DNA of 20,000 bases from an uncultured virus (IMG/VR IMGVR_UViG_3300028048_003121) (Duplodnaviria; Heunggongvirae; Uroviricota; Caudoviricetes). A program made the position numbers and the translations under genes. The notes beneath the pieces were generated by a model. That model saw only the letters and a program-made list of their open reading frames with translations, had not been told where the DNA came from and searched no databases. Of this stretch, positions 66 to 16,476 are shown piece by piece. Where the stretch lies: the IMG/VR virus record IMGVR_UViG_3300028048_003121, one strand, 5' to 3'. How positions within the stretch are numbered: position 1 is the first letter of the stretch; the number at the start of each line of letters is the position of its first letter.

Positions 66-343
66 AAAAATAAAGTGAAACAATAATATAAAAAATATTG
101 CTGCACTGATGATGCAACAATATCGTTTTCTGAACCTAATACAAACGGTGTATAAACTTTATACCCCCTTCTATTAGTATTATATCCTGCTTTTTGCCAA
201 TTTTAGGCATAGAGGATGGTATTTAACTTTATTTTAACACTATTCGTGCTAAAATATAGGTAATCTGTTCCAAAATGGGCAAAATCCGTTCCAATCAGCG
301 TTGGTGACGCTGAAAACTCTCTGCCACTATTTCTTACGCGTCG

Positions 344-613
344 CCTGTTGTTCATCTTGTGTTTATCCTTGGTTTTTTGACGACATTTCCCTTTGCAAAG
401 TTAGGCAGACGGATGGGTCGCCAAGTACCGTACCTATTCTTTCTGAAATTGCCTGGAAGCCTTCCGCAGATTACTGCATAATCTGGGTATTCCATGAAAT
501 TTCCTCGGAATTACTTGTCTAATACTCATCCTATATACTGCCTTTTTTAAGGCAAAGGAAAAGTCTAAAACCCGAAAGGATATGCCGATGTTAAAAAAAA
601 GCTCCGCTACAGG
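344..613. promoter_or_regulatory. Long imperfect hairpin, putative ssDNA (Frpo-like) promoter, copy 1
   Basis: Nested pairs: CAGATTA 467-473/TAATCTG 479-485, CAAGTA 422-427/TACTTG 512-517, AGGCAG 403-408/CTGCCT 538-543, CCTTTGC 390-396/GCAAAGG 552-558, TATCCTT 364-370/AAGGATA 576-582, CCTGT 344-348/ACAGG 609-613; - strand TAACTTTG at 403-396. Confidence 0.7.
458..493 (+). repeat. 36-bp direct repeat (hairpin apex), copy 1
   Basis: AGCCTTCCGCAGATTACTGCATAATCTGGGTATTCC identical to 13377-13412. Confidence 0.95.
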
Positions 614-688
614 AGCCAGAGAAGAAAAAGGAAGTCTTTCCCTCAGTTCAATCCGATATATCACATATACGCAACAACAAATAACCCC

Positions 689-734
689 AACAAACACCGA
701 AGCCGACGGAATATAAACAGGCACCGAGAATATG
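689..734 (+). repeat. Conserved pre-start leader motif, copy 1
   Basis: 37/46 identical to 13785-13830; both end in AGAATATG start. Confidence 0.85.
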
Positions 735-1127
735 AAACAACTTAATCAAGGTTTTAAAAACGCAATGACCTACGCAGCAGGGATGGAAAATTGGGTAAAC
801 AATTCTCTTCCTGGTGGTAAGCTGGAATACACCTTTGTCAGTGACTTCGCCAGAATAGACTGGCTGATGGGTAAGCAGGGTGTATTAGACACCTATAAGC
901 TTATCAAGAAAAGCTGGCTCGATAACTATAAGGCATGGACGGAGGTAGTAATAGCCGTCAATATGCTGGCTTGGGCGCATGATAATCTCAGAAAACAGGG
1001 CTATGCCGGACGTGAGCCTTTTATCGAACTCTACTCAGATCTCTATTATGAAGCTAAAGATGCTTTCTATGAGAAATATACGGGTGATGAAGAAAAATGC
1101 TACTACTTCTTCCAGATGACTGACTAA
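732..1127 (+). CDS. Conserved hypothetical helical protein of mobile elements
   Basis: 131-aa ORF, AAT-ATG start, TFxxDF...DTY...W...TE...YF..TD pattern recalled from phage/ICE hypotheticals. Confidence 0.85.
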   Translation: MKQLNQGFKNAMTYAAGMENWVNNSLPGGKLEYTFVSDFARIDWLMGKQGVLDTYKLIKKSWLDNYKAWTEVVIAVNMLAWAHDNLRKQGYAGREPFIELYSDLYYEAKDAFYEKYTGDEEKCYYFFQMTD

Positions 1128-1160
1128 AAGGAAACGGGAGGTCTAACCAGCCTCCCACTA
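1127..1160 (+). repeat. Post-gene GGGAG-CTAACCA-CTCCC hairpin motif, copy 1
   Basis: AAAGGAAACGGGAGGTCTAACCAGCCTCCCACTA, similar to 14409-14440. Confidence 0.85.
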
Positions 1161-1172
1161 TATAATATAGGT

Positions 1173-1703
1173 ATGAATACAAAAGATATCTTTAAAGGCA
1201 AGAGGATTAACACCCCTTACGGTATCGGTATAATCGAGGTTATGCCGATGAACAGCGAGAGCGACACTCTGATGGTTGAACTGGATCGTCCGACGTTTGA
1301 ATACTTCGGCCAGAAAGCTCATAAATTCGTGGTGGTGTCGTTCAAACAACTTAGCGAGGTTAAATACGCACCAGTTCCTGAGCGTTTGAAAGACAATCCA
1401 TCTTTCAAGTACCAGGCTTATCACTTCATTCCTGCAGGACTGTTTTCTGACTTTGGTATCGAGGATGATTTCTTTGCTATCTCGAAATGTATCACCCGTG
1501 ATAATATCCTCGCTATCTGGAATAAACATCAAGGGCCTGATGCTCGTTTTGACTGGGATGTCAACGACTTCTTTGCACAGGCAGGCGAACGAACCAATGA
1601 CGTATTCTACTGTGTTGAAACTGCATGCTTCTATGTACCAGGCGAAAATGAGCTGTTTATGCTAAAGAATGAATGTACTAAAGACTGGAAAAACAATGAA
1701 TAG
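1173..1703 (+). CDS. Hypothetical protein
   Basis: 176-aa ORF co-directional with neighbours. Confidence 0.8.
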   Translation: MNTKDIFKGKRINTPYGIGIIEVMPMNSESDTLMVELDRPTFEYFGQKAHKFVVVSFKQLSEVKYAPVPERLKDNPSFKYQAYHFIPAGLFSDFGIEDDFFAISKCITRDNILAIWNKHQGPDARFDWDVNDFFAQAGERTNDVFYCVETACFYVPGENELFMLKNECTKDWKNNE

Positions 1704-1995
1704 GACAGTTATACAGACGGAAATGTTCCCGGAAACGAAAATCTATGGCAAATATCACCTCGTTACCTACTGTGAGGATAATGGTGAGGATGATAAGGAC
1801 TATGTCAATGACATGATAACTGCCTGTGCCAAAGCCAGGCAATATCTGAATGGTGACTGCCTGACGGAACCTTACGAAAAGGTTTATCTCTTCAATGAAA
1901 TAGAAAACACATTGATTAAGGTGTTCGATAAGGATCATAAAAACGGTAGACCACCCTATCAGTTTGAAATTGCAAATTTTAATGTTAAATCATAA
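1696..1995 (+). CDS. Hypothetical protein
   Basis: Start moved to ATG 1696, overlapping the upstream stop; 99 aa. Confidence 0.75.
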   Translation: MNRTVIQTEMFPETKIYGKYHLVTYCEDNGEDDKDYVNDMITACAKARQYLNGDCLTEPYEKVYLFNEIENTLIKVFDKDHKNGRPPYQFEIANFNVKS

Positions 1996-1996
1996 T

Positions 1997-2323
1997 ATGA
2001 TGACGGTAAAAGTTACAAAGGAACAGTTAGCACACTGCCGCGAAGTGGCGGCAGCGGCTATCCGTTCTATAGCCGGAAAAGACGGTAAGGGTATGTTAAA
2101 GAAGTGGAATTGCTCCACTACATCCTATACCTTATATAATAATATGCCTACACTCATGCTGAAGGTCAACGGTAAACAACACCAGGGATGGGTTTTTGTT
2201 TCTCTGGAAGAAGGCAAAAATGGCTATGTCGTTTCTCTACTGAATGAAGATCATACTCTGAAACGGGCTGTTGTGGACGTTGAAAAAAAGGCTGTCAGAC
2301 AAGTTCTGATGGATAACATATAG
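1997..2323 (+). CDS. Hypothetical protein
   Basis: ATG at 1997 right after the stop at 1995; NMPTL.LKVNG..HQG.V motif. Confidence 0.8.
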   Translation: MMTVKVTKEQLAHCREVAAAAIRSIAGKDGKGMLKKWNCSTTSYTLYNNMPTLMLKVNGKQHQGWVFVSLEEGKNGYVVSLLNEDHTLKRAVVDVEKKAVRQVLMDNI

Positions 2324-2371
2324 CGTAAAACAGCCTATTTTGAAATTATTTTTGAAATAAATATTAAAATA

Positions 2372-2403
2372 TTTGCGTATTTCAAGAAATATTTATAACT
2401 TTG
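2372..2403 (+). promoter_or_regulatory. Bacteroidetes primary-sigma promoter for the 2437-12038 gene run
   Basis: TTTG (2372-2375) + 20 nt + TAACTTTG (2396-2403), consensus -33/-7. Confidence 0.85.
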
Positions 2404-2436
2404 CATACGAAAATACTAAAATAAGATATTTTACAC

Positions 2437-2778
2437 ATGGAGAATGTTATCACATATAAGAAGGTTGAACCCAATAAATCCTACGAGGTTTGGGTATCTA
2501 AACTCTTTGGTAATACTGGAGAATACCGCGTGAATGTGATTGAAGAGTGCGACTCTCATATTTCACAGACGGTCGATGTAAATCTCCGTTGGTACCGTGA
2601 CAGACGATGGCTTGAAAATTATATCAAAAGCCTAAAAGAAAGGACACATATTAAAATGATGGTCTTTGGAAATGGCGGTTGTATGAACGATGTTCATTAT
2701 CCTCTGGAAAAATACAAGGAACTCTTCGGACAATGGAAGGGTATGGATTTTCTCAACGACTTAAATATTGCAGCGTGA
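2437..2778 (+). CDS. Hypothetical protein
   Basis: 113-aa ORF just after a consensus promoter; TGATG coupling to the next gene. Confidence 0.85.
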   Translation: MENVITYKKVEPNKSYEVWVSKLFGNTGEYRVNVIEECDSHISQTVDVNLRWYRDRRWLENYIKSLKERTHIKMMVFGNGGCMNDVHYPLEKYKELFGQWKGMDFLNDLNIAA

Positions 2779-3758
2779 TGGCAGACTTCGATCTCTATAA
2801 TTACGATAAATATATCGTCAGCTTCTCAGGCGGTAAGGACAGTACGGCTTGTCTGCTGTTCCTCCTGGAGAATGGTGTTCCTAAAGAGAAGATAGAACTC
2901 TGGCACCAGGAGATAGACGGACGAGGCCGTAGCCTCTTTGATTGGGAAGTGACACCAGACTACTGCCGTAAACTGGGAACTGCTTTTGGCATCCCTGTCT
3001 ATTTCCAGTGGAAGGTGGGAGGCTTTGAGCGTGAAATGACACGCACAGAAAGCCTGACAGCGCCCGTCTGCTTTGAACTTCCTGACGGTTCAGTCCGACA
3101 AACAGGGGGTGATAAAGGCAAACCTTCCACAAGAAACAAATTCCCACAGCCGTCGCCGGATCTGCGAGTGCGCTGGTGTAGCGCCTACCTGAAAGTGGAT
3201 GTATGTGCCACAGCTCTTCGACATCAAGAGAGATTTCAAAATATCCGCACACTGGTGTTGTCTGGAGAACGTGGCGAGGAAAGTAAACAACGTGCCGGTT
3301 ATGCTATTATAGAGCCTGACAGGGCAGACTTACGTAATGGTCGAACGCCCAGACATATTGACCGCTTCCGTCCTATCCGTGACTGGAAAGAACAGCAGAT
3401 ATGGGACTTGTTGGAGAAATACCGCGTTCGCCCTCATCCCTGCTACTTCATGGGTTTTGGACGCTGCTCGTGTAAATTCTGTGTATTCGGTAACTGCCAT
3501 CAGTTTGCGTCAGCAGCTTGCTGCAGTCGTCGTCAGGCAGAGGATCTGATAAGCTTTGAGAAGAATTTCGGGTACACTATGAAACGTGATACCGACCTGG
3601 CATCATTGATCCGTAAGGGTGTTCCTTATGACACCATCACGGAGGAACTTCGTAGCCTCGCTACCTCTTATGAATACAGAATGCCAATTCTAATTGGCAA
3701 AAATGAAACATGGCAGCTTCCGGCAGGGGCGTTCCGTAAATGCGGTGGCCCGTCATAA
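2778..3758 (+). CDS. Phosphoadenosine phosphosulfate (PAPS) reductase-family / PP-loop protein
   Basis: VSFSGGKDS PP-loop, RWCS..LK, GERGEES..R, PI.DW, HPCY..G..RCSCKFC; start at TGATG overlap 2778. Confidence 0.9.
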   Translation: MADFDLYNYDKYIVSFSGGKDSTACLLFLLENGVPKEKIELWHQEIDGRGRSLFDWEVTPDYCRKLGTAFGIPVYFQWKVGGFEREMTRTESLTAPVCFELPDGSVRQTGGDKGKPSTRNKFPQPSPDLRVRWCSAYLKVDVCATALRHQERFQNIRTLVLSGERGEESKQRAGYAIIEPDRADLRNGRTPRHIDRFRPIRDWKEQQIWDLLEKYRVRPHPCYFMGFGRCSCKFCVFGNCHQFASAACCSRRQAEDLISFEKNFGYTMKRDTDLASLIRKGVPYDTITEELRSLATSYEYRMPILIGKNETWQLPAGAFRKCGGPS

Positions 3759-3794
3759 TATATAATAAGGTACAAACATATAAAGTCACTGATT

Positions 3795-4535
3795 ATGAAT
3801 AATAAGGTTGTCAAAACCAAGGCACAATGCCCAAAGACCTTTAATCGGGCTTTTGGTGTTCGCGAAATAGCACAGAAGATATGGGGTGAACTGAAAGTGT
3901 CAGACTCCTTTTCGTATCTCTATCGACGCTTTGGTGTTCCCTGTCTCGATACCAATAGCGAATACAAAATATCATATGAATACACTTTCTGGTATAAAGG
4001 GCTTTATTTCATCCTCTGCGGTACAACTCCAGATTTTGTATATCTGGACTGCTATTATCCGAAAAAATACTTCTGTCTACAACGTAACAGATACCGTAAG
4101 GATGTGCGAAACGTCTTTGAAAAGTCTTTGAAAGAGAATGTTCTGTGTTGGCCTTGGGCTTGTGGATTCTCACAGATATCTGATTCTTTGACGAAGAAAC
4201 AGTTAAAATCCTATAACACTAAGTTTGATGAAGAGGCACGGGTATTCTTTAGTAAAGAAGATTATAACTGGCTCGATTCCAGACAACATGTTAAACTCGA
4301 AGGAGCAGAAGCTGAAAAGTGTATGAATCTGATGGACGGTTTTTATAAATACTTACAGAATAAATTCAAGAAATGGGCTGGAAGCGATAAGGTCATCAAA
4401 ACTTTGTTCTGGTCTGATTACAATTTGAGATACCTTCCGGAAGTGGAGAAAATCGTTAAGGCTTTCTGTAAGGAAATGCTTAAAACGGAAAATATTCGGG
4501 ATTGTTCTATTAATATTCAGGGATGGCAGGAATGA
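3795..4535 (+). CDS. Hypothetical protein
   Basis: 246-aa ORF within the operon. Confidence 0.85.
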   Translation: MNNKVVKTKAQCPKTFNRAFGVREIAQKIWGELKVSDSFSYLYRRFGVPCLDTNSEYKISYEYTFWYKGLYFILCGTTPDFVYLDCYYPKKYFCLQRNRYRKDVRNVFEKSLKENVLCWPWACGFSQISDSLTKKQLKSYNTKFDEEARVFFSKEDYNWLDSRQHVKLEGAEAEKCMNLMDGFYKYLQNKFKKWAGSDKVIKTLFWSDYNLRYLPEVEKIVKAFCKEMLKTENIRDCSINIQGWQE

Positions 4536-4587
4536 ATTTCTACACATCCGTGGGGAAAATTATAGTGATAACCAAAATATAAAAATT

Positions 4588-6267
4588 ATGAATAAAATTA
4601 AGCTGTTATACATCGACCTTTTCTGTGGTGCCGGTGGCACGTCAACAGGTGTTGAACACGCCAAACTTTTCAATAAAAAATGTGCAAAGGTGGTGGCGTG
4701 TGTGAATCACGACGCTAACGCTATTGCGTCCCATCAGGCGAACCATCCCGACACGTTACATTTCACCGAGGACATCAGAACATTGGAACTTAGTCCGCTG
4801 GTGGCCCATCTTAAGAAGGTACGGAAGAAATACCCGGATGCTTACGTGGTATTGTGGGCCAGTCTGGAATGTACGAATTTCTCTAAAGCAAAGGGCGGTC
4901 AGCCGCGGGACGCGGATAGCCGTACCCTGGCTGAACACCTCTTCCGATATATCGAGGCTTTGCAGGTCGATTATATCCAGATTGAGAACGTCGAGGAGTT
5001 TATGAGTTGGGGGGATATGGATGAACACGGCCACCCAATCAGCAAAGACAAGGGCCGATGCTACCTGAAGTGGGTCAAGACCGTACAGCAATACGGCTAT
5101 GACTACGACTACCGCATTCTCAATGCAGCAGATTTCGGAGCATACACCTCCCGTAAACGTTTCTTCGGGCAGTTTGCCAAATGTGGACTGCCTATCGTGT
5201 TCCCCGTTCAGAGCTATGCCAAGAACGGCGACGAAGGCGGCATGTTCCATCAGTATAAGAAATGGAAACCTGTCCGTGAGGTGCTGGACTTGCAGGATGA
5301 AGGCAGCAGTATCTTCATGAAGAAAAAACCTCTCTGCGAAAAGACGCTGGAGCGTATCTTTGCCGGCTTGGTTAAATTCGTTGCTGGTGGCAAGAAAAAG
5401 TATGAGGACTTTATCTTGAAATATAACAGCATGAACAAGAGCGGACACTATCGTCCTGTTCCTACTGACGAACCGTGTCCTGTGGTAGCCACACAAAACC
5501 GACTGGGCTATGTCAAGCTGAATTTCCTCAGCAAGCAGTTCAGTGGCGACCCTGCCAGCAAGAACCAGTCCGTTGACAAACCGGCAGGCACCATTACCTG
5601 TGTCGATCACCATGCCTTCGTCACGGCATACTTCGGTAATGGCTTTAACAGCTCTATTGAAAGTCCGAGTCCTACTGTTACCACCAAGGAACGACATGCA
5701 CTTGTAAGCGTTGACCTGAACGAGCCGATGCCGGATGTTCCCTTGGATAAGGTAACCATTCAAACTAACCAGTTTCTCGCCAACGAATATAGCGGTGGCG
5801 GCCAGGTGGGGTCAATAGAAACGGTCAATCCTGCCGTTCTATGCAACCCGAAACAAAAACTGGTGTCGGCTGACCAGTACCTGATGAATCCTTATTCTTT
5901 CAAGAGTGACGGCGGTAGTATAGAGAATCCCTGCTTTACGCTGATAGCTCGCATGGATAAAATGCCGCCTTACCTGATTTCAACGGAGAAGGGAGAAATG
6001 GCAATAGCCATCTATGAGGAAGATTCTCCCATGACAAGGAAAATCAAGGAGTTTATGGCTGCATACGGCATCGTTGATATCAAGATGCGTATGCTGAACA
6101 TCCAGGAGCTGAAGCGTATCATGGGCTTCCCAGAGGACTATGTGCTGATAGGCACACAGGCAGAGCAGAAGAAATTCATCGGCAATGCCGTTGAAGTGAA
6201 TATGAGTCGAGTGCTTTGTGAGGCATTGTGTATGAAACTGTCGGACTATCAGAAAATGGCAATATGA
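4588..6267 (+). CDS. DNA (cytosine-5)-methyltransferase, orphan
   Basis: Motif I DLFCGAGG, motif IV SLECTNFS, motif VI IENV, motif VIII TSRKRFF, C-terminal MGFP.DY...IGNAV. Confidence 0.93.
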   Translation: MNKIKLLYIDLFCGAGGTSTGVEHAKLFNKKCAKVVACVNHDANAIASHQANHPDTLHFTEDIRTLELSPLVAHLKKVRKKYPDAYVVLWASLECTNFSKAKGGQPRDADSRTLAEHLFRYIEALQVDYIQIENVEEFMSWGDMDEHGHPISKDKGRCYLKWVKTVQQYGYDYDYRILNAADFGAYTSRKRFFGQFAKCGLPIVFPVQSYAKNGDEGGMFHQYKKWKPVREVLDLQDEGSSIFMKKKPLCEKTLERIFAGLVKFVAGGKKKYEDFILKYNSMNKSGHYRPVPTDEPCPVVATQNRLGYVKLNFLSKQFSGDPASKNQSVDKPAGTITCVDHHAFVTAYFGNGFNSSIESPSPTVTTKERHALVSVDLNEPMPDVPLDKVTIQTNQFLANEYSGGGQVGSIETVNPAVLCNPKQKLVSADQYLMNPYSFKSDGGSIENPCFTLIARMDKMPPYLISTEKGEMAIAIYEEDSPMTRKIKEFMAAYGIVDIKMRMLNIQELKRIMGFPEDYVLIGTQAEQKKFIGNAVEVNMSRVLCEALCMKLSDYQKMAI

Positions 6268-6827
6268 TAACTATACCGAAACATACTATTCCGACGTATA
6301 ACCCAAGTTCGACTGCTATCAATGAGCAGTCGGACTTCACGCGTCGTATTCCGTCATACCCTCCGAAGGTAAGGGTAAGGGTGGAAAAAGTTATTAAGCA
6401 GCTTATCCAGGCATACGACGTAGAGGAAAACCCAGAGAAAATGAAGGATATCTTTTTCAAAAAGGCAAGTCTCCTTCCTAATCCTACCTATTGGGAACTG
6501 CTACGCTCAGTATGGGTAGCTGCTGGTAGAGTTGATAATGTTCATGAGTTTATGCCGTTCTTTAAATCCAATAGACCCAGTAAGAATTGGTTTATGACTC
6601 CAGAGGACGCTACAGCATTTGATAAAATGGTTTTTCCATTGAAGGTATATCGGGCCTATAGCCAAGAACCGGATCCGGGAATATCATGGACTCTCGATGA
6701 ACAATGGTGCAAGGAATATGCTACTTTCAACGATAGACAAATTAAATCCCGCACCGTTATGCGTGAAGATGTTTTCGCCTATATCAGCAGACGAGGCGAA
6801 GAAGAGATAATCATTTTACCCAAATAA
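6264..6827 (+). CDS. Putative ADP-ribosyltransferase-fold protein (R-S-E class)
   Basis: ATGA coupling to the MTase; LKVYRA ... GISWTLD ... RGEEEIIIL. Confidence 0.6.
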   Translation: MITIPKHTIPTYNPSSTAINEQSDFTRRIPSYPPKVRVRVEKVIKQLIQAYDVEENPEKMKDIFFKKASLLPNPTYWELLRSVWVAAGRVDNVHEFMPFFKSNRPSKNWFMTPEDATAFDKMVFPLKVYRAYSQEPDPGISWTLDEQWCKEYATFNDRQIKSRTVMREDVFAYISRRGEEEIIILPK

Positions 6828-6828
6828 T

Positions 6829-7482
6829 ATGGCAGAGATAAAAATCACAAAGGATCTTCTGGTTCCTTTCGTTTCAAAAGATGAAACACGACCAGGACTG
6901 GCTGATGTTTTCCGTCAGCACGGATATGTTATAGCGTCAGACGGACACCTCTTGATAAGAGTGCCGGAGAATATGGTGGATGACCTGGAACAGATACCCG
7001 AACAAGGTCTTCCCAATACCGACAGTGTTATCCCAAAGGAATTGCCTTGGAATAAGCCAATAACCAAAGATTGCTTGATGAAAGCGCTGGCTAAAGCTCC
7101 CAAGGTGGAGGAAAAGGTAAGGTGTGAAGACTGTCACGGCTCTGGTAAGGTTGAATGGACTTACGAAGCCCAAAACGGCCATGAGTACACCGACACTTTT
7201 GAATGCCCTGTATGTCACGGCAAGGGTCATCATGGCGTGACGGGAAAACTGGTTCCAGATCCGCAACAACTCTATTCATTGGCTGGTGGAGCCATGAATC
7301 CGGAATGTCTGTATGATCTCATTCGTGTAATGGAAACATTTAAGGTAAAGAAGATGTCGCAACGCTCCTCTGATAACTTCAAGGCAATGTTTACTATCGG
7401 TGAAGTCCAAGTACTAAAGACATTTGTCATCATCGAAGGTGAAGACAAACCTCTACTGGATGAAATGATTAACATCAGATAA
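6829..7482 (+). CDS. Beta-clamp-like protein fragment with DnaJ-type zinc finger
   Basis: FVSKDETRP.L..V...IASDGHLL, PNTDSVIP; CEDCHGSG...CPVCHGKG. Confidence 0.6.
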   Translation: MAEIKITKDLLVPFVSKDETRPGLADVFRQHGYVIASDGHLLIRVPENMVDDLEQIPEQGLPNTDSVIPKELPWNKPITKDCLMKALAKAPKVEEKVRCEDCHGSGKVEWTYEAQNGHEYTDTFECPVCHGKGHHGVTGKLVPDPQQLYSLAGGAMNPECLYDLIRVMETFKVKKMSQRSSDNFKAMFTIGEVQVLKTFVIIEGEDKPLLDEMINIR

Positions 7483-7491
7483 ACTATCATA

Positions 7492-7806
7492 ATGGGCCAA
7501 CGCTATAGATATGAAGGTACTCCGGGCTGTTGCAGACCAACTCGTACATGGCGCAAATGGCTGATAGCCTATGAGGATGGCGAAGAGATATATGCCAAGA
7601 AAGGCTATATCCTCGACTTGGGTAAGCTAAGCATCCGGAGAGGACAGAATATCCATGTCTATGAAGAGACTATTACCCACATCATCAATCACAGAACACG
7701 CGAGATAGAGGTGAATAAGTTCAGAATAGAGATAACGGAACGCCTGAAGATGGAAATCAAAATTGAAAATTTAGATCGAAAACTTTTAAAAGAAAAAAGA
7801 ATATGA
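7492..7806 (+). CDS. Hypothetical protein
   Basis: 104-aa ORF tightly packed in the operon. Confidence 0.7.
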   Translation: MGQRYRYEGTPGCCRPTRTWRKWLIAYEDGEEIYAKKGYILDLGKLSIRRGQNIHVYEETITHIINHRTREIEVNKFRIEITERLKMEIKIENLDRKLLKEKRI

Positions 7807-7919
7807 ATATACTATCACTAATTATTGGTTGCACTCTTGGAAGCATTATAGGATATATTATAGCATATATCCAAGTCAGGTACGAGAATAAATCTAAACG
7901 GCAGAAAAGAAATGGATAA
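7803..7919 (+). CDS. Small single-TM peptide (38 aa)
   Basis: MNILSLIIGCTLGSIIGYIIAYIQVRYENKSKRQKRNG; ATGA overlap upstream and overlap with the next start; below the ORF-track cutoff. Confidence 0.6.
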   Translation: MNILSLIIGCTLGSIIGYIIAYIQVRYENKSKRQKRNG

Positions 7920-8265
7920 GATAATAACAAACATTACTATCGGAAACTGGTATCTGGTTAGAGAAAAACCTACCAGAATATCTCCGGCAAATGTTGTGTG
8001 GGCATTTCGGGATGGATGTTTTCCTATACCGCTGACAAGTGAAATACTGGAGAATAGCGGTATTCATAGAGAGGGAGGTGCCAGTTTCTGGCACGATGAA
8101 CATTATAGTATTGTATTTTTCTTCTGGAATGAGGAAAGAATAGAACTGATTATCAGTAAGAGAGGTGATGATCGTCCGTATATTGCAAAACTTGATGTAA
8201 AATACGTCGATCAACTACAAGATTTATTGAGAGTGTATAATATAAACTTAATGATTGAGTTATGA
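7912..8265 (+). CDS. Hypothetical phage-type protein (paralog of 9578-10030)
   Basis: PIPLTSEILE.SG ... VKYVDQLQ motif. Confidence 0.8.
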   Translation: MDKIITNITIGNWYLVREKPTRISPANVVWAFRDGCFPIPLTSEILENSGIHREGGASFWHDEHYSIVFFFWNEERIELIISKRGDDRPYIAKLDVKYVDQLQDLLRVYNINLMIEL

Positions 8266-9383: not shown

Positions 9384-9413
9384 GGATTATATAACCATTA
9401 AATTATAGAAGAT

Positions 9414-9581
9414 ATGAGACTCTACGGAAGTATATGCCCCATCTATAATCGCGAGGTCAATGATGACTGCCGTCGATGCGGTCGCTTCTATTCCGGCAAC
9501 GCCACAGGAATAGAATGTGACAGTTCCCCAATGGATATTCCGAACATCCTTAAAGAGATTGGAAAGGAGGCTGGAGTATGA
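9414..9581 (+). CDS. Small Cys-rich protein (55 aa), possibly Zn-binding
   Basis: MRLYGSICPIYNREVNDDCRRCGRFYSGNATGIECDSSPMDIPNILKEIGKEAGV; ATGA overlap with 9578. Confidence 0.6.
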   Translation: MRLYGSICPIYNREVNDDCRRCGRFYSGNATGIECDSSPMDIPNILKEIGKEAGV

Positions 9582-10030
9582 CAATACAAGAACTGAAAAA
9601 GCTGATGATTGATGACTTCGTATATTCAAAGAAGCACAATCAGATAGTTCGGGTCTGGGCGGTACATCCCGGCTATATTCAGTGTTATGTCAACGGCATC
9701 CTGACAGAAGTCGGTAACGACGATGTAGAACCCATCAGGCTTACAGACGAGTTTCTGAAGAAACTTGGATTCAAGCCTCGCAGGGATATTGGCTGGGAGG
9801 ATAGAGACTTGTTCTACTGGGAAGGTGATAGGGTTTATGCCAGACTTATTCCTACCAGTTATAAGATCAGCAGTTGGTATGACTTGAAAATCGAGTCGAT
9901 AGACTCTGACGATCTGCGTCGGGGTGACTTGCGCCGTACAATGGTGAAGTATGTGCATGAAATGCAGCAGGCCTTTCGGTTTAACTATATCGATAAGGAA
10001 TTTAACTTAACGACGAAAAATAGCATATGA
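9578..10030 (+). CDS. Hypothetical phage-type protein (paralog of 7912-8265)
   Basis: PIRLTDEFLKKLGF ... VKYVHEMQ motif. Confidence 0.85.
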   Translation: MTIQELKKLMIDDFVYSKKHNQIVRVWAVHPGYIQCYVNGILTEVGNDDVEPIRLTDEFLKKLGFKPRRDIGWEDRDLFYWEGDRVYARLIPTSYKISSWYDLKIESIDSDDLRRGDLRRTMVKYVHEMQQAFRFNYIDKEFNLTTKNSI

Positions 10031-10251: not shown

Positions 10252-10309
10252 CGTATGACTGACGAGGGCTTTGAAAGAGAAATAAAGGAAAATAAACTGG
10301 TCTGACAAT

Positions 10310-10633: not shown

Positions 10634-10647
10634 ATTTGTTATCTGTC

Positions 10648-11535: not shown

Positions 11536-11561
11536 CACCAAATCCCTTTTTTGTTGGTTTA

Positions 11562-12038: not shown

Positions 12039-12041
12039 CCA

Positions 12042-13118: not shown

Positions 13119-13237
13119 GCAAATAAATACTATAAAGCTATCTTTTAGTGCAGAATTTTAGGATAAAATAACCATTCTATATAACATATAGTACCTATAT
13201 GTAAGGATATTGCTTTTACAAAAGCATTTTCCCTTGC

Positions 13238-13546
13238 GGATTTCCATCGTGCCACCTGCCCTACAGAATACCCATCGACGTTGACTGTTTTTTCACGCCG
13301 TTTTCCCTTGCAAAGGTATGGAGAGGCAGGCTATCGCCAATGAACAGGCTAAAGTATCGGCATAAAAAGCTCAGGCAGCCTTCCGCAGATTACTGCATAA
13401 TCTGGGTATTCCTGATTTTTTACTTGATATTCCTTGGCTTATAGCCTTTAGAACCTCTCCCTGATATACCGGCAAGAAAAAAGGCTAAAACAGTGAAACG
13501 ATGTACCGATGAGTTCTTTGAAAGGGTGGTGACAGATGAAAAATTC
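13238..13546. promoter_or_regulatory. Long imperfect hairpin, putative ssDNA (Frpo-like) promoter, copy 2
   Basis: Pairs: CAGATTA/TAATCTG 13386-13404, TCAGG 13371-75/CCTGA 13411-15, AGGCTAT 13328-34/ATAGCCT 13441-47, GGAGAGG 13320-26/CCTCTCC 13454-60, CTTGC 13307-11/GCAAG 13472-76, ACTGTTT 13284-90/AAACAGT 13488-94; - strand TACCTTTG at 13318-13311. Confidence 0.7.
13377..13412 (+). repeat. 36-bp direct repeat (hairpin apex), copy 2
   Basis: Identical to 458-493. Confidence 0.95.
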
Positions 13547-13631
13547 CAAAAAAAGAAAATAAGGACTTTCAGCTCTCGATACCCGATAAGTTCAATAACA
13601 ACAGCGCAACAAAAGAATAGGAGGATTGAAT

Positions 13632-13772
13632 ATGAAAAAGTCATTTAACCAGATAGCAGCTCAACTGGAGCGTATCTACAAGCTTTACTACAAGGGCTTC
13701 GGTACAAAGACATTACTGGAGAAGGCAGAAAAGTGCATGTACGGCATACAGAACGTAGGACTGTGCTTCTGA
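13632..13772 (+). CDS. Small basic protein (46 aa)
   Basis: MKKSFNQIAAQLERIYKLYYKGFGTKTLLEKAEKCMYGIQNVGLCF; GAATATG start context with GGAGG upstream. Confidence 0.65.
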   Translation: MKKSFNQIAAQLERIYKLYYKGFGTKTLLEKAEKCMYGIQNVGLCF

Positions 13773-13784
13773 CATCTAACAATA

Positions 13785-13830
13785 AACAAACAGCGGAGGC
13801 GGCGCGATATAAACAGCCACAAAGAATATG
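13785..13830 (+). repeat. Conserved pre-start leader motif, copy 2
   Basis: 37/46 identical to 689-734. Confidence 0.85.
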
Positions 13831-14403
13831 AAGAAATATAATATCTATCAGATCAAGAACGACTCACAGGTTGCTCGTGGCATCAAATTTTCCGGACTGG
13901 AAGAGCTGGAGAAATACAACCTACGTAGCCAACTGACCCTCGACATCTATCAAAAGGTCTATACCGGCGAGATAGAGGATGGCGACATATTGGTAATGCT
14001 GGATCGTATCTTCTCGAAGTTCCAGGGGAAAAAGCCTGCTGACTTTACAGGTCATAGCGTCAGCGTATCAGATATGGTGGAAATGGACGGTAAGTACTAT
14101 TATTGCGACCATTACACATGGAAGAAAATCACTTTCACTGAGACTAAGACAACAGAAACTCCAGAAAAGGATCTCTACAGTGAGGTGGCAGATATCCTAA
14201 AGGAAGGTAACCTCTATGGTGACATCAATACCTACGATAACCAGGTGGAGGTCAGTATCGAATGGGGTGACTGGAAACACGAACATGGCTATCTTCGCTA
14301 TCTCATGGAACAGAAAGGCTTCGTTGAGACCAACGAGGAAATCACTGAAGAGGATGGTAGCGACTGCTACTCAGCAGTACACACCTTCAAAAAGGCAGCA
14401 TAA
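13828..14403 (+). CDS. YodL-domain protein fused to an acidic C-terminal domain
   Basis: YNIYQIK...Y.KVY.G...L..IF..F....P.DF.GHS.SVSD.V...YYCD. Confidence 0.8.
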   Translation: MKKYNIYQIKNDSQVARGIKFSGLEELEKYNLRSQLTLDIYQKVYTGEIEDGDILVMLDRIFSKFQGKKPADFTGHSVSVSDMVEMDGKYYYCDHYTWKKITFTETKTTETPEKDLYSEVADILKEGNLYGDINTYDNQVEVSIEWGDWKHEHGYLRYLMEQKGFVETNEEITEEDGSDCYSAVHTFKKAA

Positions 14404-14408
14404 CATAT

Positions 14409-14440
14409 AAAGGTAACGGGAGCCTAACCAACTCCCACTA
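14409..14440 (+). repeat. Post-gene GGGAG-CTAACCA-CTCCC hairpin motif, copy 2
   Basis: AAAGGTAACGGGAGCCTAACCAACTCCCACTA, similar to 1127-1160. Confidence 0.85.
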
Positions 14441-14454
14441 AAAACTTACGTCAT

Positions 14455-14613
14455 ATGAATAACAACAATGCAATCTACAGGGAACTATGGTTCGTGGCAC
14501 CAGTTTTCAAGTGGCTGGACAAACATCCGCTCATCTCAGACATCATCCTGGTTCTGGAAGGCTTGGCAACAGCCTGGGCAGTGTTTAACTATAACTTTAC
14601 AACCAATTTCTGA
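14455..14613 (+). CDS. Small hydrophobic protein (52 aa)
   Basis: MNNNNAIYRELWFVAPVFKWLDKHPLISDIILVLEGLATAWAVFNYNFTTNF; follows the post-gene motif as ORF 1173 does. Confidence 0.65.
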   Translation: MNNNNAIYRELWFVAPVFKWLDKHPLISDIILVLEGLATAWAVFNYNFTTNF

Positions 14614-14721
14614 CGAAAACGGTCTTAAATGAGTTAAATCAAGACAAAGTTTTGAGAATATTCTGAAAGTCAGATAAATAGTGATAATTTCGCAGAGTAA
14701 TAACTTAAAAAAAACAAGAAT

Positions 14722-15168
14722 ATGTTTAGTGGAAGTTTTTTAGGCCGTTGTGGCAAGGACGCCGAGATCTTAACAGGCGCATCAGGTGAACAGTATGTGG
14801 CATTGAATGTCGCAGAGTCTTATTATTCCAAGGGAGAAACCCTGACACGATGGTACAAAGTCTATGCCAGCTTCCCAAGAGCACTGAAACTGGCTCAGTA
14901 CTGGAAGAAAGGCAGACTCCTGGAAGTTGTTGGCGAACTGGTAAAGCATAACATCTATGAGGACAAGGATGGCAAGCCACAGCTTCAATTGGTGGTGAAC
15001 GCCTTCCGTGTGGAATTTCCACCAGTCGGCAAGAAAAGAGATGAACAGACCGGTGAACAGAAGAGCAGTACACCGCCTCCTGTCTCTGAGGAGGATGTTA
15101 ACAATACACCTCAGATGCCTTTCGAGGCTCCTGCAGGTGGCGAGGGTAACGATGATCTTCCCTTCTAA
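14722..15168 (+). CDS. ssb: Single-stranded DNA-binding protein
   Basis: OB-fold LGR.G.DAE...T.W.....KKG..V.V.G.L; acidic tail DDLPF. Confidence 0.92.
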   Translation: MFSGSFLGRCGKDAEILTGASGEQYVALNVAESYYSKGETLTRWYKVYASFPRALKLAQYWKKGRLLEVVGELVKHNIYEDKDGKPQLQLVVNAFRVEFPPVGKKRDEQTGEQKSSTPPPVSEEDVNNTPQMPFEAPAGGEGNDDLPF

Positions 15169-15205
15169 GAACACCTACTTACAGTAGAATGTCTATCGAG
15201 GCCTC

Positions 15206-15240
15206 GGACGCTGAGCCAGTGGAATCAGCGTCCACTTTCT
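15206..15240 (+). terminator. GC-rich hairpin after ssb (weak terminator or processing site)
   Basis: GGACGCTGA 15206-14/TCAGCGTCC 15225-33 followed by ACTTTCT. Confidence 0.45.
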
Positions 15241-15254
15241 AAAAACAATCAGAT

Positions 15255-15572
15255 ATGAATAAGGAAGAATTTAATCAGAAACTCGGACGGCTACAGGAAA
15301 TCATTGCTGAAGCCAGGGAAATTATCAGCTCTTTGGAAGAGTTCTGCAAAGAGAATAATGAGCTGGCATATACACCTGTAGCATCTCTTGCTATAGCCCA
15401 AGGTGGGCTACAAACAAAATATTTGAACGTCTGCAGCAATGCTGGCATCAAAAATATCCAGCAGCTTATGGACGTTGGCTACAACAACTTTAAGAAATAC
15501 CGGAATAGCGGCAAGATGACGGCTGACCTGGTCAGGAAAGCCTTATGGGAACAATATCATATAGAATGGTAA
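15255..15572 (+). CDS. RNA polymerase alpha-CTD-like (HhH) domain protein
   Basis: L.TK.LNVCSNAGIKNI.QL......FKKYRNSGK.T...V..AL. Confidence 0.7.
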   Translation: MNKEEFNQKLGRLQEIIAEAREIISSLEEFCKENNELAYTPVASLAIAQGGLQTKYLNVCSNAGIKNIQQLMDVGYNNFKKYRNSGKMTADLVRKALWEQYHIEW

Positions 15573-15955
15573 AGAAATCTGGTATGGAATATTTCCGCGT
15601 CATCATAGCCGGTGGTCGTGACTTTAACGACTATCCACTGCTGAAAGCCAAATGTGACAACATCCTGGCAGATAAAACCGCTACACACCGTATCATAGTC
15701 GTGTCTGGAGCGGCCAAGGGAGCTGACAGCCTGGGCGAGCAGTATGCCCGTGAGAAGGGCTATACTGTAGAACAATATCCGGCTGACTGGAATACACACG
15801 GCAGGGCGGCTGGTCCCATCCGTAATGCTCAGATGGCGAACAGCGCCGATGCCCTGATAGCCTTCTGGGATGGCCAGAGCAAAGGCACGAAGAGTATGAT
15901 AAACATAGCCAAGACAAAAGGATTGGGCGTAAGAGTAATAAGCTACACTATATAA
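15566..15955 (+). CDS. SLOG-family (DUF2493/YspA-like) protein
   Basis: IIAGGRDF.DY, VSGAAKGAD, ADW..HG.AAGPIRN.QM, AFWDG.SKGT; start 15566 or 15584. Confidence 0.88.
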   Translation: MVKKSGMEYFRVIIAGGRDFNDYPLLKAKCDNILADKTATHRIIVVSGAAKGADSLGEQYAREKGYTVEQYPADWNTHGRAAGPIRNAQMANSADALIAFWDGQSKGTKSMINIAKTKGLGVRVISYTI

Positions 15956-16014
15956 TTTTCTCGAAATATTGTATTTTTCAGCATATAATTTTCATCAAAA
16001 ATTGTATTTTTACT

Positions 16015-16476
16015 ATGAATAGAATCACAGAGAGATACTGGTTCCGGGCAAAGGTGCTACACCATGACCCAAAAACAAATCCTGAAAACGGATGGGTACA
16101 GGGCTTCTACTATCAAGACCTGTGCGGTGGAGAGATCAAACATTTCATCCGTTCAGGGGAAATGGTATGGGAAATCGATCCGAAGACATTAGGAATGTTT
16201 ACCGGCTTCTATGACAATAGCACAGAGCCACAGCCTATCTTTGAAGGCGACATCCTTCATACGCTCTTCAAGGATAACGGCAGCAGCTATGACCTGGTAG
16301 GCTGGAACCCGAAAAATGGTTGCTTCGGCATCATGGATGATATAGACTATAACGCCAGAATGGAGGGTGAGGAGGATTACTACTCCTATGAAGCCTTTGC
16401 TTGGATGCACCAGAAAAAAGTTCAGTCGGTAGTAGCTGGAAACGTCCACGAGAATGCAGACCTGATGACACAATAA
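16015..16476 (+). CDS. YopX-family protein
   Basis: FRAK...WV.G...IDP.TLG.FTG..D....IFEGDI...V.GNVHEN.DL. Confidence 0.85.
   Translation: MNRITERYWFRAKVLHHDPKTNPENGWVQGFYYQDLCGGEIKHFIRSGEMVWEIDPKTLGMFTGFYDNSTEPQPIFEGDILHTLFKDNGSSYDLVGWNPKNGCFGIMDDIDYNARMEGEEDYYSYEAFAWMHQKKVQSVVAGNVHENADLMTQ

What the first reader, a model, noticed from the sequence alone, without database searches (positions are those of the whole stretch)
344..613. Bacteroidetes-type single-stranded-DNA promoter (copy 1): the promoter points at the genes only after folding
Seen: a ~270-nt nested imperfect inverted repeat upstream of the + genes. Its left arm carries a Bacteroidetes promoter on the - strand (TTGGCGA 424-418, then TAACTTTG 403-396), which points away from the genes in dsDNA. 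If the - strand alone folds, that arm becomes the non-template strand and pairs with 512-582. RNA polymerase would then copy the right arm and run into 732 onward, giving + sense mRNA. The -7 box faces a poorly matching stretch (544-551), which could act as a pre-opened bubble. Established: F-plasmid Frpo hairpins work this way with sigma70 boxes to express leading-region genes right after transfer. Inference: this is the counterpart built on Bacteroidetes -33/-7 boxes; I do not know of a characterised example.
Basis: partly seen in the sequence, partly recalled or inferred. Interest (0 to 1): 0.88.

Follow-up and report, generated by a model that had tools for sequence, protein, structure and literature searches.

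The report
Fold-back promoter for incoming Bacteroidales DNA
A long DNA hairpin that occurs twice in this window, and in many transferable elements of gut Bacteroidales, holds a standard Bacteroides promoter that faces its genes only when one strand folds on itself, so it probably turns on early genes just after conjugation.

Summary
Both copies (about 341-588 and 13221-13569) fold as long imperfect hairpins. The minus strand carries TTG-N18/19-TAnnTTTG at the stated places, and part of the -7 box sits in an internal loop.

The element belongs to a family. I found 82 distinct members in Bacteroidales genomes and 107 more in metagenome contigs. Among 51 representatives:
- The full promoter motif is on the minus-strand 3' arm in 38 and on the plus strand in 0.
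- Box positions 2-7 are mostly unpaired, while the flanks are paired.
- The arms covary: 18 of 31 pairs carry compensatory changes.

The hairpins precede co-oriented SSB, RadC, PcfK, DUF2958 and YodL genes. The nearest relaxase is co-oriented in 19 of 20 clusters.

An invertible promoter is excluded at assembly level, with 0 flipped forms against 371 collinear flank pairs and 107 contigs.

Best reading (about 0.68): a single-stranded-DNA promoter that works like F-plasmid Frpo but uses the Bacteroidetes -33/-7 boxes. No sequence similarity to Frpo-bearing plasmids was found.

Not shown: any transcript, which strand is transferred, or ssDNA-only activity.

My literature searches found no such element described for this phylum.

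The parts
341..588 (-). Copy 1: long imperfect hairpin formed by the minus strand (the template strand of the + genes). The covariance-model match is 386-571.
   Evidence: The minimum-energy fold has 78 pairs around the apex. Model R1 scores 127.2 bits, E 3e-26.
422..424 (-). Copy 1: -33 element TTG, read on the minus strand and paired with 515-517 in the stem.
   Evidence: TTG is kept at this alignment position in the family, and these columns are paired in 82-92% of 51 folds.
396..403 (-). Copy 1: -7 element TAACTTTG on the minus strand. It is partly unpaired: A402, A401 and C400 are free.
   Evidence: In the family, the box is an exact TAnnTTTG in 38 of 51 representatives and has one mismatch in the other 13.
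543..552 (-). Copy 1: the stretch of the other arm that faces the -7 box. It is not complementary to the box, so the + strand carries no TAnnTTTG here.
   Evidence: In the family, an exact TAnnTTTG occurs on the + strand right arm in 1 of 51.
458..493 (-). Copy 1: apex module. Two conserved motifs form an internal loop around a short, freely covarying stem-loop.
   Evidence: The module is also kept, with small changes, in model hits that were not selected by the motif.
557..561 (+). Copy 1: predicted 5' end of the + sense transcript, opposite the minus-arm positions 5-9 nt past the -7 box.
   Evidence: Inference from the pair map and from where Bacteroides start sites lie relative to the -7 box. 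Not observed.
689..746 (+). Leader shared with copy 2 (78% identical to 13785-13842). It runs into the start codon of the first gene.
   Evidence: repeat D2.
732..2323 (+). Operon 1 downstream of copy 1: four ORFs (732-1127, 1173-1703, 1669-1995, 1964-2323), none with a Pfam match. No exact TAnnTTTG lies on the + strand anywhere in 1-2346.
13221..13569 (-). Copy 2: long imperfect hairpin of the minus strand. The covariance-model match is 13301-13491.
   Evidence: The fold has 130 pairs around the apex. Model R1 scores 135.4 bits, E 4.4e-28.
13311..13340 (-). Copy 2: TTG (13340-13338), 19-nt spacer and TACCTTTG (13318-13311) on the minus strand. The TTT at 13314-13312 is bulged.
13377..13412 (-). 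Copy 2: apex module, identical to that of copy 1 over the 39 bases 455-493 / 13374-13412 except at one position.
13477..13481 (+). Copy 2: predicted 5' end of the + sense transcript.
   Evidence: Inference. Not observed.
13632..16476 (+). Operon 2 downstream of copy 2: a 46-aa ORF, YodL-like (13828-14403), SSB (14722-15168), an ORF with a weak alpha-CTD-like match (15255-15572), YAcAr/SLOG (15545-15955) and YopX (16015-16476). No exact + strand TAnnTTTG lies between 10632 and 16235.

Best explanation
Each copy is a single-stranded-DNA promoter of a conjugative element of Bacteroidales.

Proposed mechanism:
1. The strand that serves as template for the + genes (the minus strand) enters a recipient cell alone and folds into a hairpin of about 250-350 nt.
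2. The stem rebuilds a duplex -33 element (TTG) and spacer.
3. The -7 element TAnnTTTG on the 3' arm lies in a conserved internal loop that is closed downstream by a TGCA clamp and followed by an A/T-rich stem. This would act as a pre-opened promoter for the primary Bacteroidetes sigma factor.
4. RNA polymerase reads the 5' arm as template and runs out of the base of the hairpin. It makes + sense RNA from about 557-561 (copy 1) and about 13477-13481 (copy 2) into the downstream establishment genes.
5. Synthesis of the complementary strand abolishes the hairpin. The + strand has no -7 box on that side, so the genes lose this promoter.

Shown: the hairpin, the boxes, their one-sided conservation, the loop, the covariation, and the gene and relaxase context.

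Inferred: which strand is transferred, initiation on ssDNA, and the start sites.

The RNA may also prime complementary-strand synthesis, or the hairpin may stall it, as reported for F-plasmid ssDNA promoters.
For: (1) Two copies in the window fold better than shuffles. Both carry TTG-N18/19-TAnnTTTG on the minus strand. The window holds 6 such motifs against 1.17 expected from shuffles.

(2) Family size. The apex pattern found 119 stretches in species-representative genomes. Of 113 usable distinct sequences, 82 are true members (E <= 3.7e-25), nearly all from Bacteroidales records, and 27 are non-members from other phyla.

(3) In 51 representatives (<95% identical):
- TTG-N17-20-TAnnTTTG is on the minus strand in 38 and on the plus strand in 0.
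- An exact TAnnTTTG is on the + right arm in 1.
- The spacer is 19 nt in 37 of 51.
- Box positions 2-7 are paired in only 22-53% of folds, against 82-100% for most flanking positions (two downstream columns 53-65%).

(4) The structure is conserved.
- In 24 sequences, 31 pairs are 93.3% paired against 78.1% in shuffles (0 of 500 reach it) and 30.7-48.0% when slid. Eighteen pairs carry changes on both sides.
- Native arm combinations fold at -49.4 kcal/mol and chimeric ones at -34.2; the native fold is better in 45 of 51.

(5) The minus strand folds better than the plus strand in 41 of 51.

(6) Context.
- Hairpins sit 82-253 nt from their apex to a co-oriented ATG ORF, with 55 distinct N-termini.
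- Of 32 downstream ORFs scanned, 3 are SSB, 2 PcfK, 2 DUF2958, 1 RadC and 1 PRTase-like.
- In G001 and G004 the layout is hairpin, then SSB or RadC, then a few ORFs, then a Mob_Pre relaxase, all on one strand.
- In G002 the hairpins lie inside a conjugative element that has NikA, relaxase, TraG, TraM, TraN and T4CP genes, all on one strand.

(7) All co-resident copies share a strand: G001 5 of 5, G004 4 of 4, and seven further contigs 2 of 2. The nearest same-contig relaxase within 100 kb is co-oriented in 19 of 20 clusters.

(8) The operons behind both window copies have no exact consensus + strand promoter.

(9) The mechanism is established for F Frpo1/Frpo2, which are two near-identical copies, one of them upstream of ssb (PMC9849209, passages read).
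Against: - No transcript evidence. The only true RNA library with any signal gave five short contigs. One of them (13368-13509) covers the apex and right arm of copy 2, which a start at about 13479 would not produce. DNA carry-over cannot be excluded.
- The transferred strand is inferred from relaxase orientation and the F/RP4 rule, not mapped. Genes in these elements are mostly co-directional anyway, so co-orientation is weak evidence.
- The wobble test for the folding strand is ambiguous. On 28 pairs shared by both strand-specific predictions, G-T on the minus strand is 16 against 4. Over the union of pairs it is 33 against 29.
- In dsDNA the same boxes form a consensus leftward promoter with correct spacing, so leftward transcription in established cells is likely and is not explained.
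- In the CTn-like family the hairpins lie 27-45 kb downstream of the relaxase on the integrated map, so they are 'leading' only after circularisation.
- G005 is an exception to the co-orientation.
- The 51 representatives are not independent, and the family was retrieved through the apex motif.
Confidence: 0.68

Rival explanations
1. The hairpin is only a single-strand initiation site (of the sso/ssi type). RNA polymerase, or an element-encoded primase, makes a short primer on the folded incoming strand for complementary-strand synthesis, and no mRNA results.
For: - Frpo RNA primes DNA synthesis (title of Masai & Arai 1997 in the reference list seen; in vivo support in preprint 10.64898/2026.01.09.698686, passages read).
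- A Toprim/DUF3991 primase-like gene lies just upstream of hairpin A in G002.
- The conserved apex module has no role in a plain promoter and could be a recognition site.
Against: - Hairpins are consistently placed directly in front of co-oriented ORFs. In the SSB type the start codon is about 100 nt from the apex end, which is about 40 nt past the predicted start site.
- There are several copies per element, each heading an operon without its own consensus promoter.
- Priming and mRNA synthesis are not mutually exclusive.
Confidence: 0.1
2. It is an ordinary dsDNA promoter that fires leftward, giving a divergent or antisense transcript. It happens to lie in a palindrome that serves another purpose, such as a terminator or insulator between co-directional operons.
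For: - The boxes match the consensus with the right spacing on linear DNA.
- In the window, a leftward ORF starts at about 66 and another at 13087.
Against: - The 13087 ORF has its own TATCTTTG 24 nt upstream.
- In G001, G004 and G002 the region upstream of the hairpins holds co-oriented genes and no divergent gene.
- In the rough flank survey, a divergent ATG ORF of >= 40 codons was seen in 15 of 74 loci, against an upstream co-oriented frame in 46 of 74.
- A leftward RNA would contain only the outer left arm. It explains neither the covariation of both arms nor the loop placed exactly at the -7 box.
Confidence: 0.1
3. The hairpin is a structured RNA. It would be either a leader or processing site in a + sense read-through transcript, or a minus-sense non-coding RNA.
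For: - The + strand also folds well (z -3.24).
- The wobble counts do not clearly favour one strand.
- A metatranscriptome fragment covers 13368-13509.
Against: - No Rfam family matches the window at E <= 1.
- An RNA role does not explain a full sigma-type promoter motif kept on one arm in 38 of 51 and removed from the other.
- The minus strand folds better in 41 of 51.
- No conserved promoter for a minus-sense RNA that spans both arms was seen.
Confidence: 0.05
4. It is a Bacteroides-type invertible promoter seen in the OFF state. Recombination between the outer arms would flip the promoter so that it faces the genes.
For: - Invertible promoters flanked by inverted repeats are common in Bacteroidales (PMC8748976, search listing only).
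- Inversion would put the boxes on the + strand with the same predicted start site.
Against: - Outer flanks of family members are always collinear with the apex and promoter: 215 right-right and 156 left-left matches, and 0 left-right matches on the opposite strand.
- For the commonest relative, the flipped configuration occurs in 0 metagenome contigs and the observed configuration in 107.
- No recombinase was found among 35 window ORFs.
- Covariation runs along the whole interior.
Confidence: 0.02

Closest known systems
Frpo1/Frpo2 of plasmid F and ssi1-3 of ColIb-P9/pESBL (class 1 ssDNA promoters)
   Same: - A long imperfect hairpin of the template strand with both promoter boxes on one arm.
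- Several near-identical copies per element.
- Placed upstream of co-oriented leading genes, including ssb.
- Genes silent from this promoter once the DNA is double-stranded.
(PMC9849209, passages read; PMC12672017, passages read.)
   Different: - The boxes are the Bacteroidetes -33 TTG / -7 TAnnTTTG, not sigma-70 -35/-10.
- No sequence similarity was found: blastn of 300-760 against 72,556 plasmid records gave no match.
- The hosts are integrative conjugative elements of Bacteroidales.
- There is an extra conserved apex module.
- Activity is untested.
Class 2 and class 3 ssDNA promoters of pESBL and F (upstream of ardA, klcA, M.EcoGIX)
   Same: They show that ssDNA promoters come in several unrelated hairpin classes in front of anti-defence genes. 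One class also acts as a barrier to complementary-strand synthesis (PMC12672017; preprint 10.64898/2026.01.09.698686).
   Different: They are enterobacterial and of the sigma-70 type. Their start sites were mapped by 5' RACE; here none is mapped.
Frpo-like candidates of Samuel et al. 2024 (leading-region anti-defence islands)
   Same: The same logic applies: hairpins upstream of ORFs in leading regions, with genes oriented so that the transferred strand is the template (PMC11541004, passages read).
   Different: Their search used similarity to Frpo and the sigma-70 -35/-10 consensus. The main text has 0 mentions of 'Bacteroid'. Their supplementary tables were not read.
RNA-polymerase-dependent single-strand origins (ssoA/ssoU of rolling-circle plasmids; sso of ICEBs1)
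   Same: These are folded ssDNA with promoter-like boxes, are read by host RNA polymerase, and depend on orientation (recalled, from no call).
   Different: They give short primers and are not placed as operon promoters. Their defining RSB/CS-6 motifs were not looked for here.
Ordinary sigma-ABfr promoters of Bacteroides
   Same: The consensus is the same: TAnnTTTG at -7 and TTTG around -33 (PMC7366714, passage read). The window's own dsDNA promoter at 2373-2403 has it too.
   Different: Here the boxes face away from the genes on duplex DNA and sit in a conserved fold-back with the -7 box in a loop.

Membership tests
Frpo/ssi class 1 ssDNA promoters (by descent) | Sequence similarity to Frpo/ssi of IncF/IncI plasmids | tested here: not met
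   blastn (11-base words) of window 300-760 against the plasmid collection gave no match. Relatives L015 and L024 also gave none. No Frpo sequence was compared directly.
ssDNA promoter (by mechanism) | Long imperfect hairpin on the strand that is the template of the downstream genes | tested here: met
   Covariation is shown, and the chimeric-arm test.
ssDNA promoter (by mechanism) | Both promoter elements on the 3' arm, oriented so that the 5' arm and the genes beyond it are transcribed | tested here: met
   The full motif is on the minus strand in 38 of 51 representatives and on the plus strand in 0. The geometry is worked out.
ssDNA promoter (by mechanism) | Imperfect pairing at the melting element (-10 in Frpo; that feature is recalled from Masai & Arai 1997, which I did not see) | tested here: met
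   Box positions 2-7 are paired in 22-53% of 51 folds. Most flanking positions are paired in 82-100% (two downstream columns 53-65%).
ssDNA promoter (by mechanism) | The folding strand is the transferred strand, and the site lies in the leading region | tested here: inconclusive
   The hairpins are co-oriented with the nearest relaxase in 19 of 20 clusters, and lie 3-8 kb upstream of it in G001, G004, G010 and G015. oriT, the nick site and the transferred strand were not mapped.
ssDNA promoter (by mechanism) | Transcription from ssDNA, early and transient in transconjugants | not testable with these tools
   Only assembled contigs of RNA libraries were available, and they were uninformative.
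Sigma-ABfr promoter | TAnnTTTG at -7 and T(T)TG near -33 | tested here: met
   The consensus is taken from PMC7366714.
Bacteroidales invertible promoter | Both orientations occur relative to the flanks | tested here: not met
   0 inverted against 371 collinear flank pairs. 0 flipped against 107 unflipped metagenome contigs.
Rfam RNA families | Match to any curated covariance model | tested here: not met
   0 matches at E <= 1 over the whole window.

The most novel reading that the evidence does not exclude
This is the first class of single-stranded-DNA promoters built for the Bacteroidetes primary sigma factor. It is spread through integrative conjugative elements of gut and rumen Bacteroidales.

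Its rightward -7 box has been selectively removed, so the establishment and anti-defence genes behind it are expressed only from the incoming folded strand.

A conserved apex module (an internal loop flanking a variable stem-loop) recruits a second factor, such as a primase, SSB or polymerase subunit. That would make the hairpin a combined promoter, priming site and conversion timer.
Probability: 0.5. Interest if true: 0.85.

Novelty: new variant of a known kind. Interest (0 to 1): 0.78.

Why it matters
So far ssDNA promoters have been shown by experiment only in enterobacterial IncF/IncI plasmids, all with sigma-70 boxes. A family with the unmistakable Bacteroidetes -33/-7 grammar would show three things:
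- The fold-back promoter strategy evolved, or was re-invented, for a very different transcription apparatus.
- Bacteroidales conjugative elements, the main vehicles of gene flow in the gut, switch on SSB, RadC, PcfK and YodL-type genes before the second strand is made.
- There is a simple sequence signature (TTG-N19-TAnnTTTG in a bulged arm) for marking leading regions and the transferred strand in thousands of unannotated elements.

It is directly testable with existing Bacteroides genetics. It could also serve as a promoter for transient expression, active only on delivery, in microbiome engineering.

Tried and rejected
- **RNAalifold on a plain MAFFT alignment of all 51 representatives** found only 9 pairs, because the arms were misaligned between subfamilies. 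I used a length-matched subset of 24 instead. The outer stem, including the -7 region, was assessed sequence by sequence.
- **Wobble-pair strand test.** It looked decisive at first (30 G-T against 4 A-C). It depends on which strand the structure was predicted from, so I treat it as inconclusive.
- **Flank ORF survey with 240-390 nt flanks**. It is noisy because of shadow frames and was used only as rough support.
- **RNA evidence**. Only Logan contigs were available. X3, the one true RNA library, laid five short contigs (1294-1500, 2538-2773, 5685-5934, 13368-13509, 14840-14969). X1, X2 and X4 are probably DNA. None gives a start, an end or a strand. Parts of the window without cover mean nothing.
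- **blastn against plasmid and phage collections.** No match for the window copy or for two relatives.
- **Window's own assembly.** It is not held, so I worked through the nearest genome, G001, and the genomes behind the loci.
- **Covariance model over 151 genomes** drawn evenly across the order. It matched 2, one of which was G001 itself. The family is patchy, as expected for mobile DNA, and this says nothing about absence.
- **Integron attC-like or other folded recombination site.** Considered because metagenome contigs join 723 to 14411. No integrase is present in the window, and a recombination site would not explain the promoter motif.
- **oriT.** Rejected because there are up to five copies per element.
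Full report
**Observation**

On the minus strand of copy 1, TTG lies at 424-422, an 18-nt spacer follows, and TAACTTTG lies at 403-396. A second copy has TTG at 13340-13338, a 19-nt spacer and TACCTTTG at 13318-13311. The repeat finder links the two copies in two places:
- The apex region, 455-524 against 13374-13443, is 80% identical overall, and its first 39 bases are nearly identical.
- A leader just before the first gene, 689-746 against 13785-13842, is 78% identical.

Folded as ssDNA:

| Stretch | Strand | Energy (kcal/mol) | z | Shuffles as good |
|---|---|---|---|---|
| 300-660 | minus | -45.4 | -2.45 | 1 of 100 |
| 300-660 | plus | -46.0 | -3.24 | 0 of 100 |
| 13230-13620 | minus | -62.1 | -4.70 | 0 of 100 |

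The pair map shows the following for copy 1:
- The hairpin spans 341-588, with 78 pairs around the apex.
- TTG 424-422 pairs with 515-517.
- In the -7 box, T403 pairs with A543. A402, A401 and C400 are unpaired. T399-397 form three A-T pairs with 546-548. G396 pairs with C552. Positions 544-545 and 549-551 are unpaired.

Copy 2 spans 13221-13569 with 130 pairs, and the TTT at 13314-13312 is bulged. On the folded minus strand the boxes lie on the 3' arm and point to the hairpin base. A polymerase would therefore copy the 5' arm and continue into + sense RNA towards 732 (copy 1) or 13632/13828 (copy 2).

**What surrounds it**

Of 35 ORFs scanned against Pfam, the + strand block holds:
- a PAPS-reductase-like protein (2679-3758);
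- a C5 DNA methylase (4588-6267);
- YodL-like (13828-14403);
- SSB (14722-15168);
- YAcAr/SLOG (15545-15955);
- YopX (16015-16476).

A ParA-type ATPase lies on the minus strand (18175-18936). This is the gene content of a leading or establishment region of a conjugative element. The window has a normal dsDNA promoter of the Bacteroides type at 2373-2403 (+). It has no exact + strand TAnnTTTG anywhere in 1-2346 or in 10632-16235, the stretches that include both hairpins and the operons behind them.

**The family**

The window's own assembly is not held. The nearest genome, G001, has five copies on one 166,918-nt contig, all on the same strand.

I scanned species-representative genomes with the two apex motifs and a 14-44 nt gap. 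This found 119 stretches. Of 113 usable distinct sequences:
- 82 are true members by a profile search (E <= 3.7e-25);
- 4 are weak;
- 27 do not match.

The members come from records labelled Bacteroides, Phocaeicola, Prevotella, Segatella, Muribaculaceae, Parabacteroides, Odoribacter, Palleniella and the like, plus one bin labelled Oscillibacter. The non-members come from unrelated phyla and number about what chance predicts for a 20-base pattern. None of them has CAAAnnTA at the family's position.

Between the two apex motifs the short stem-loop changes freely while staying a stem-loop.

Two limits apply. Because retrieval used the apex motifs, their invariance in this set is by construction. 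However, five covariance-model hits that did not match the exact pattern keep them with small changes, and four of the five also keep an exact -7 box. Rfam has no matching family. The plasmid and phage collections hold no similar DNA.

**The promoter is one-sided**

I reduced the 82 members to 51 representatives (<95% identical).
- The -7 box is an exact TAnnTTTG in 38. It has one mismatch in the other 13.
- The TTG-to-box spacer is 17-20 nt, and 19 nt in 37 of 51.
- An exact TAnnTTTG is on the minus-strand 3' arm in 38, on the minus-strand 5' arm in 0, on the + strand left arm in 0, and on the + strand right arm in 1.
- The full TTG-N17-20-TAnnTTTG motif is on the minus strand in 38 and on the plus strand in 0.

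A perfect palindrome would carry the box on both arms. Here the copy that would face the genes on duplex DNA has been lost throughout the family, and the copy that faces away has been kept.

In the individual folds, box position 1 is paired in 82%, positions 2-7 in only 22-53%, and position 8 in 100%. The TTG columns are paired in 82-92%, and most of the ten downstream positions in 82-100% (two of them 53-65%). The loop is closed by a self-complementary TGCA and followed by an A/T-rich stem. The consensus TAnnTTTG at -7 and TTTG near -33 for the primary Bacteroides sigma factor is taken from PMC7366714 (passage read). That about 19 bp is the optimal spacer is my recollection of Chen et al. 2007, which I did not see.

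**The fold is conserved**

RNAalifold failed on a plain alignment of all 51 representatives (9 pairs). On 24 length-matched sequences from several subfamilies it found 31 pairs in the inner half, 18 of them with changes on both sides.

Counting with controls:
- 93.3% of cells are paired, against 78.1% in column shuffles (0 of 500 reach it) and 30.7-48.0% when the partners are slid by 1-3 columns.
- The covariation score is 0.464, against 0.191 in shuffles.

For the whole hairpin I swapped arms between dissimilar members. Native combinations fold at -49.4 kcal/mol on average and chimeras at -34.2. The native fold is better in 45 of 51. These sequences are related, so the figures are not probabilities.

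**Which strand folds**

The minus strand folds better than the plus strand in 41 of 51 representatives (mean -49.4 against -45.7 kcal/mol).

The wobble test is ambiguous.
- On the 28 pairs predicted from either strand, G-T on the minus strand outnumbers A-C by 16 to 4.
- Pairs predicted from only one strand carry wobbles of that strand by construction. Over the union the count is 33 to 29.

The case for the minus strand therefore rests mainly on the orientation and asymmetry of the boxes.

**Context in other elements**

- **G001:** the hairpin at about 110.9 kb is followed by SSB, five ORFs and a Mob_Pre-type relaxase, all on one strand.
- **G004:** one hairpin precedes RadC. Another precedes a PRTase-like gene and a YpsA/SLOG gene. 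A short variant found by the covariance model (L128 12965-13083, E 0.001-0.004) lies just upstream of SSB. A Mob_Pre relaxase follows 4.5-8 kb downstream.
- **G002:** the hairpins lie in a conjugative element whose genes are all co-directional. In order these are integrase, NikA-like, relaxase, ParA-like, DUF4134, TraG, TraM, TraN, coupling protein, TraX, ArdC-N and Toprim. Hairpin A follows and precedes PcfK and PcfJ. Hairpin B precedes four small ORFs.

Across 74 loci I found a co-oriented ATG ORF of >= 45 codons starting 82-253 nt from the apex end, with 55 distinct N-termini. Of 32 scanned, 3 are SSB, 2 PcfK, 2 DUF2958, 1 RadC and 1 PRTase-like. The remaining 23 have no Pfam match.

Copies on one contig always share a strand. 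Of 20 hairpin clusters with a PF03432 match on the same contig within 100 kb, the nearest is co-oriented in 19. G005 is the exception, and its local element looks rearranged. Seven hairpin-bearing contigs had no relaxase match on them.

If oriT lies upstream of the relaxase gene and that gene enters last, as in F and RP4 (established knowledge), the transferred strand is the template strand of the relaxase, and so of the hairpin-driven genes. This is an inference. It is weakened by the general co-directionality of genes in these elements. In the CTn-like family the hairpins lie 27-45 kb downstream of the relaxase on the integrated map, so they are close to oriT only in the excised circle.

**Rivals**

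- **Invertible promoter.** This is the Bacteroides-specific alternative, and inversion would give the same start site. It finds no support. Outer flanks of members match each other only in the collinear sense: 215 right-right and 156 left-left matches, with 0 on the opposite strand. Eight left-right matches on the same strand reflect tandem hairpins. For the commonest relative, the flipped configuration occurs in 0 metagenome contigs and the observed one in 107. No recombinase was found in the window.
- **Plain leftward promoter.** This remains possible as an additional activity, because the boxes are consensus on duplex DNA. It explains neither the pairing of both arms nor the loop at the box, and divergent genes are not a regular feature.
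- **Priming-only site.** This cannot be separated from a promoter by sequence. The tight placement before ORFs favours mRNA. F-plasmid ssDNA promoters are reported to do both.
- **RNA structure.** This does not account for the one-sided promoter.

**Expression data**

One search for runs and one laying of contigs were possible. Only assembled contigs were available, and they show neither ends nor strand. One fragment from a metatranscriptome covers 13368-13509. It may be DNA carry-over. It is recorded as evidence against, not for.

**Comparison with what is known**

I read passages of PMC9849209:
- Frpo folds into a stem-loop that rebuilds the -10 and -35 boxes and recruits RNA polymerase.
- Frpo1 and Frpo2 are 92% identical and about 5 kb apart.
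- Frpo2 lies upstream of ssb.
- Both are needed for early expression in transconjugants and are inactivated by conversion to dsDNA.

PMC12672017 defines classes 1-3 of ssDNA promoters in pESBL and F, with mapped start sites. PMC11541004 searched 21,907 elements for Frpo homologues and for sigma-70-type candidates. Its main text does not mention Bacteroidetes, and I did not read its supplements.

Full-text searches gave the following:
- 'bacteroid' with 'ssDNA promoter': 0 papers.
- 'bacteroid' with 'frpo': 8 papers, none relevant by title.
- 'Bacteroides' with 'leading region' and 'conjugative': 10 papers, none on this by title or abstract.

The present family works like Frpo but is not a member by descent, since no similarity was found. 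It uses another promoter grammar and has an extra apex module. I did not test that note.

**Verdict**

- It is a new variant of a known kind, of high interest to people who work on conjugation and on Bacteroides genetics.
- It is directly testable.

Noticed in passing
window 458-493 and 13377-13412; also L132 18254-18454, L246, L241: The apex of the hairpin is a conserved module. On the minus strand, GGAATACC(C) and (T)GCGGAAGGCTGCC form a CGG/CCG stem, an asymmetric internal loop (AATA against AAGGCTG) and a CCC/GGG stem around a variable stem-loop of 14-78 nt. It lies about 60-110 nt upstream of the predicted start site. Its role is unexplained; it could be a binding site for a primase, SSB or a polymerase subunit.
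   Followed up: partly
window 689-746 and 13785-13842: A 58-nt leader that runs into the start codon of the first long ORF is shared by both copies (78% identical), although the proteins behind it differ.
   Followed up: no
window 1138-1160 and 14411-14436: Just after the stop codon of the first gene of each hairpin-driven operon lies the same small stem-loop (GGGAG..CTAACCA..CTCCC). It has no T-run after it, so it is not a classic terminator.
   Followed up: no
window 723 joined to 14411 (contigs of runs X1, X2): DNA contigs of two coded runs join the leader of copy 1 directly to the sequence after the YodL gene, skipping 13,687 bases. Other contigs end or diverge at 568/605. The hairpins and leaders seem to be module boundaries at which relatives differ.
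   Followed up: no
window 2367-2405 (+) and 17817-17855 (-): A 39-nt stretch that holds an ordinary Bacteroides promoter occurs twice in opposite orientation (87% complementary). The copies lie in front of the + gene at 2437 and the - gene at 17793.
   Followed up: no
window 15255-15572: A 105-aa ORF in the SSB operon has a weak match, below Pfam's cut-off, to the C-terminal domain of the RNA polymerase alpha subunit (E 2e-4).
   Followed up: no
L066 (two hairpins about 800 nt apart), L241/L243 (G158), L126: In several elements an SSB-type hairpin, the SSB gene and a second hairpin follow each other directly, so ssb is bracketed by two members of the family.
   Followed up: partly
window 10512-10542 and 10425-10452 (minus strand): Two further full matches to TTG-N17-20-TAnnTTTG lie antisense inside + strand ORFs. 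They could be chance or antisense promoters.
   Followed up: no
G001:C5, 96-132 kb (L126, L127): The same large element carries a BsuBI/PstI-type restriction enzyme with an Eco57I-type methylase, an RnlB-like antitoxin, a reverse transcriptase and a clostripain-like peptidase. These lie between hairpin copies and look like defence and anti-defence cargo.
   Followed up: no
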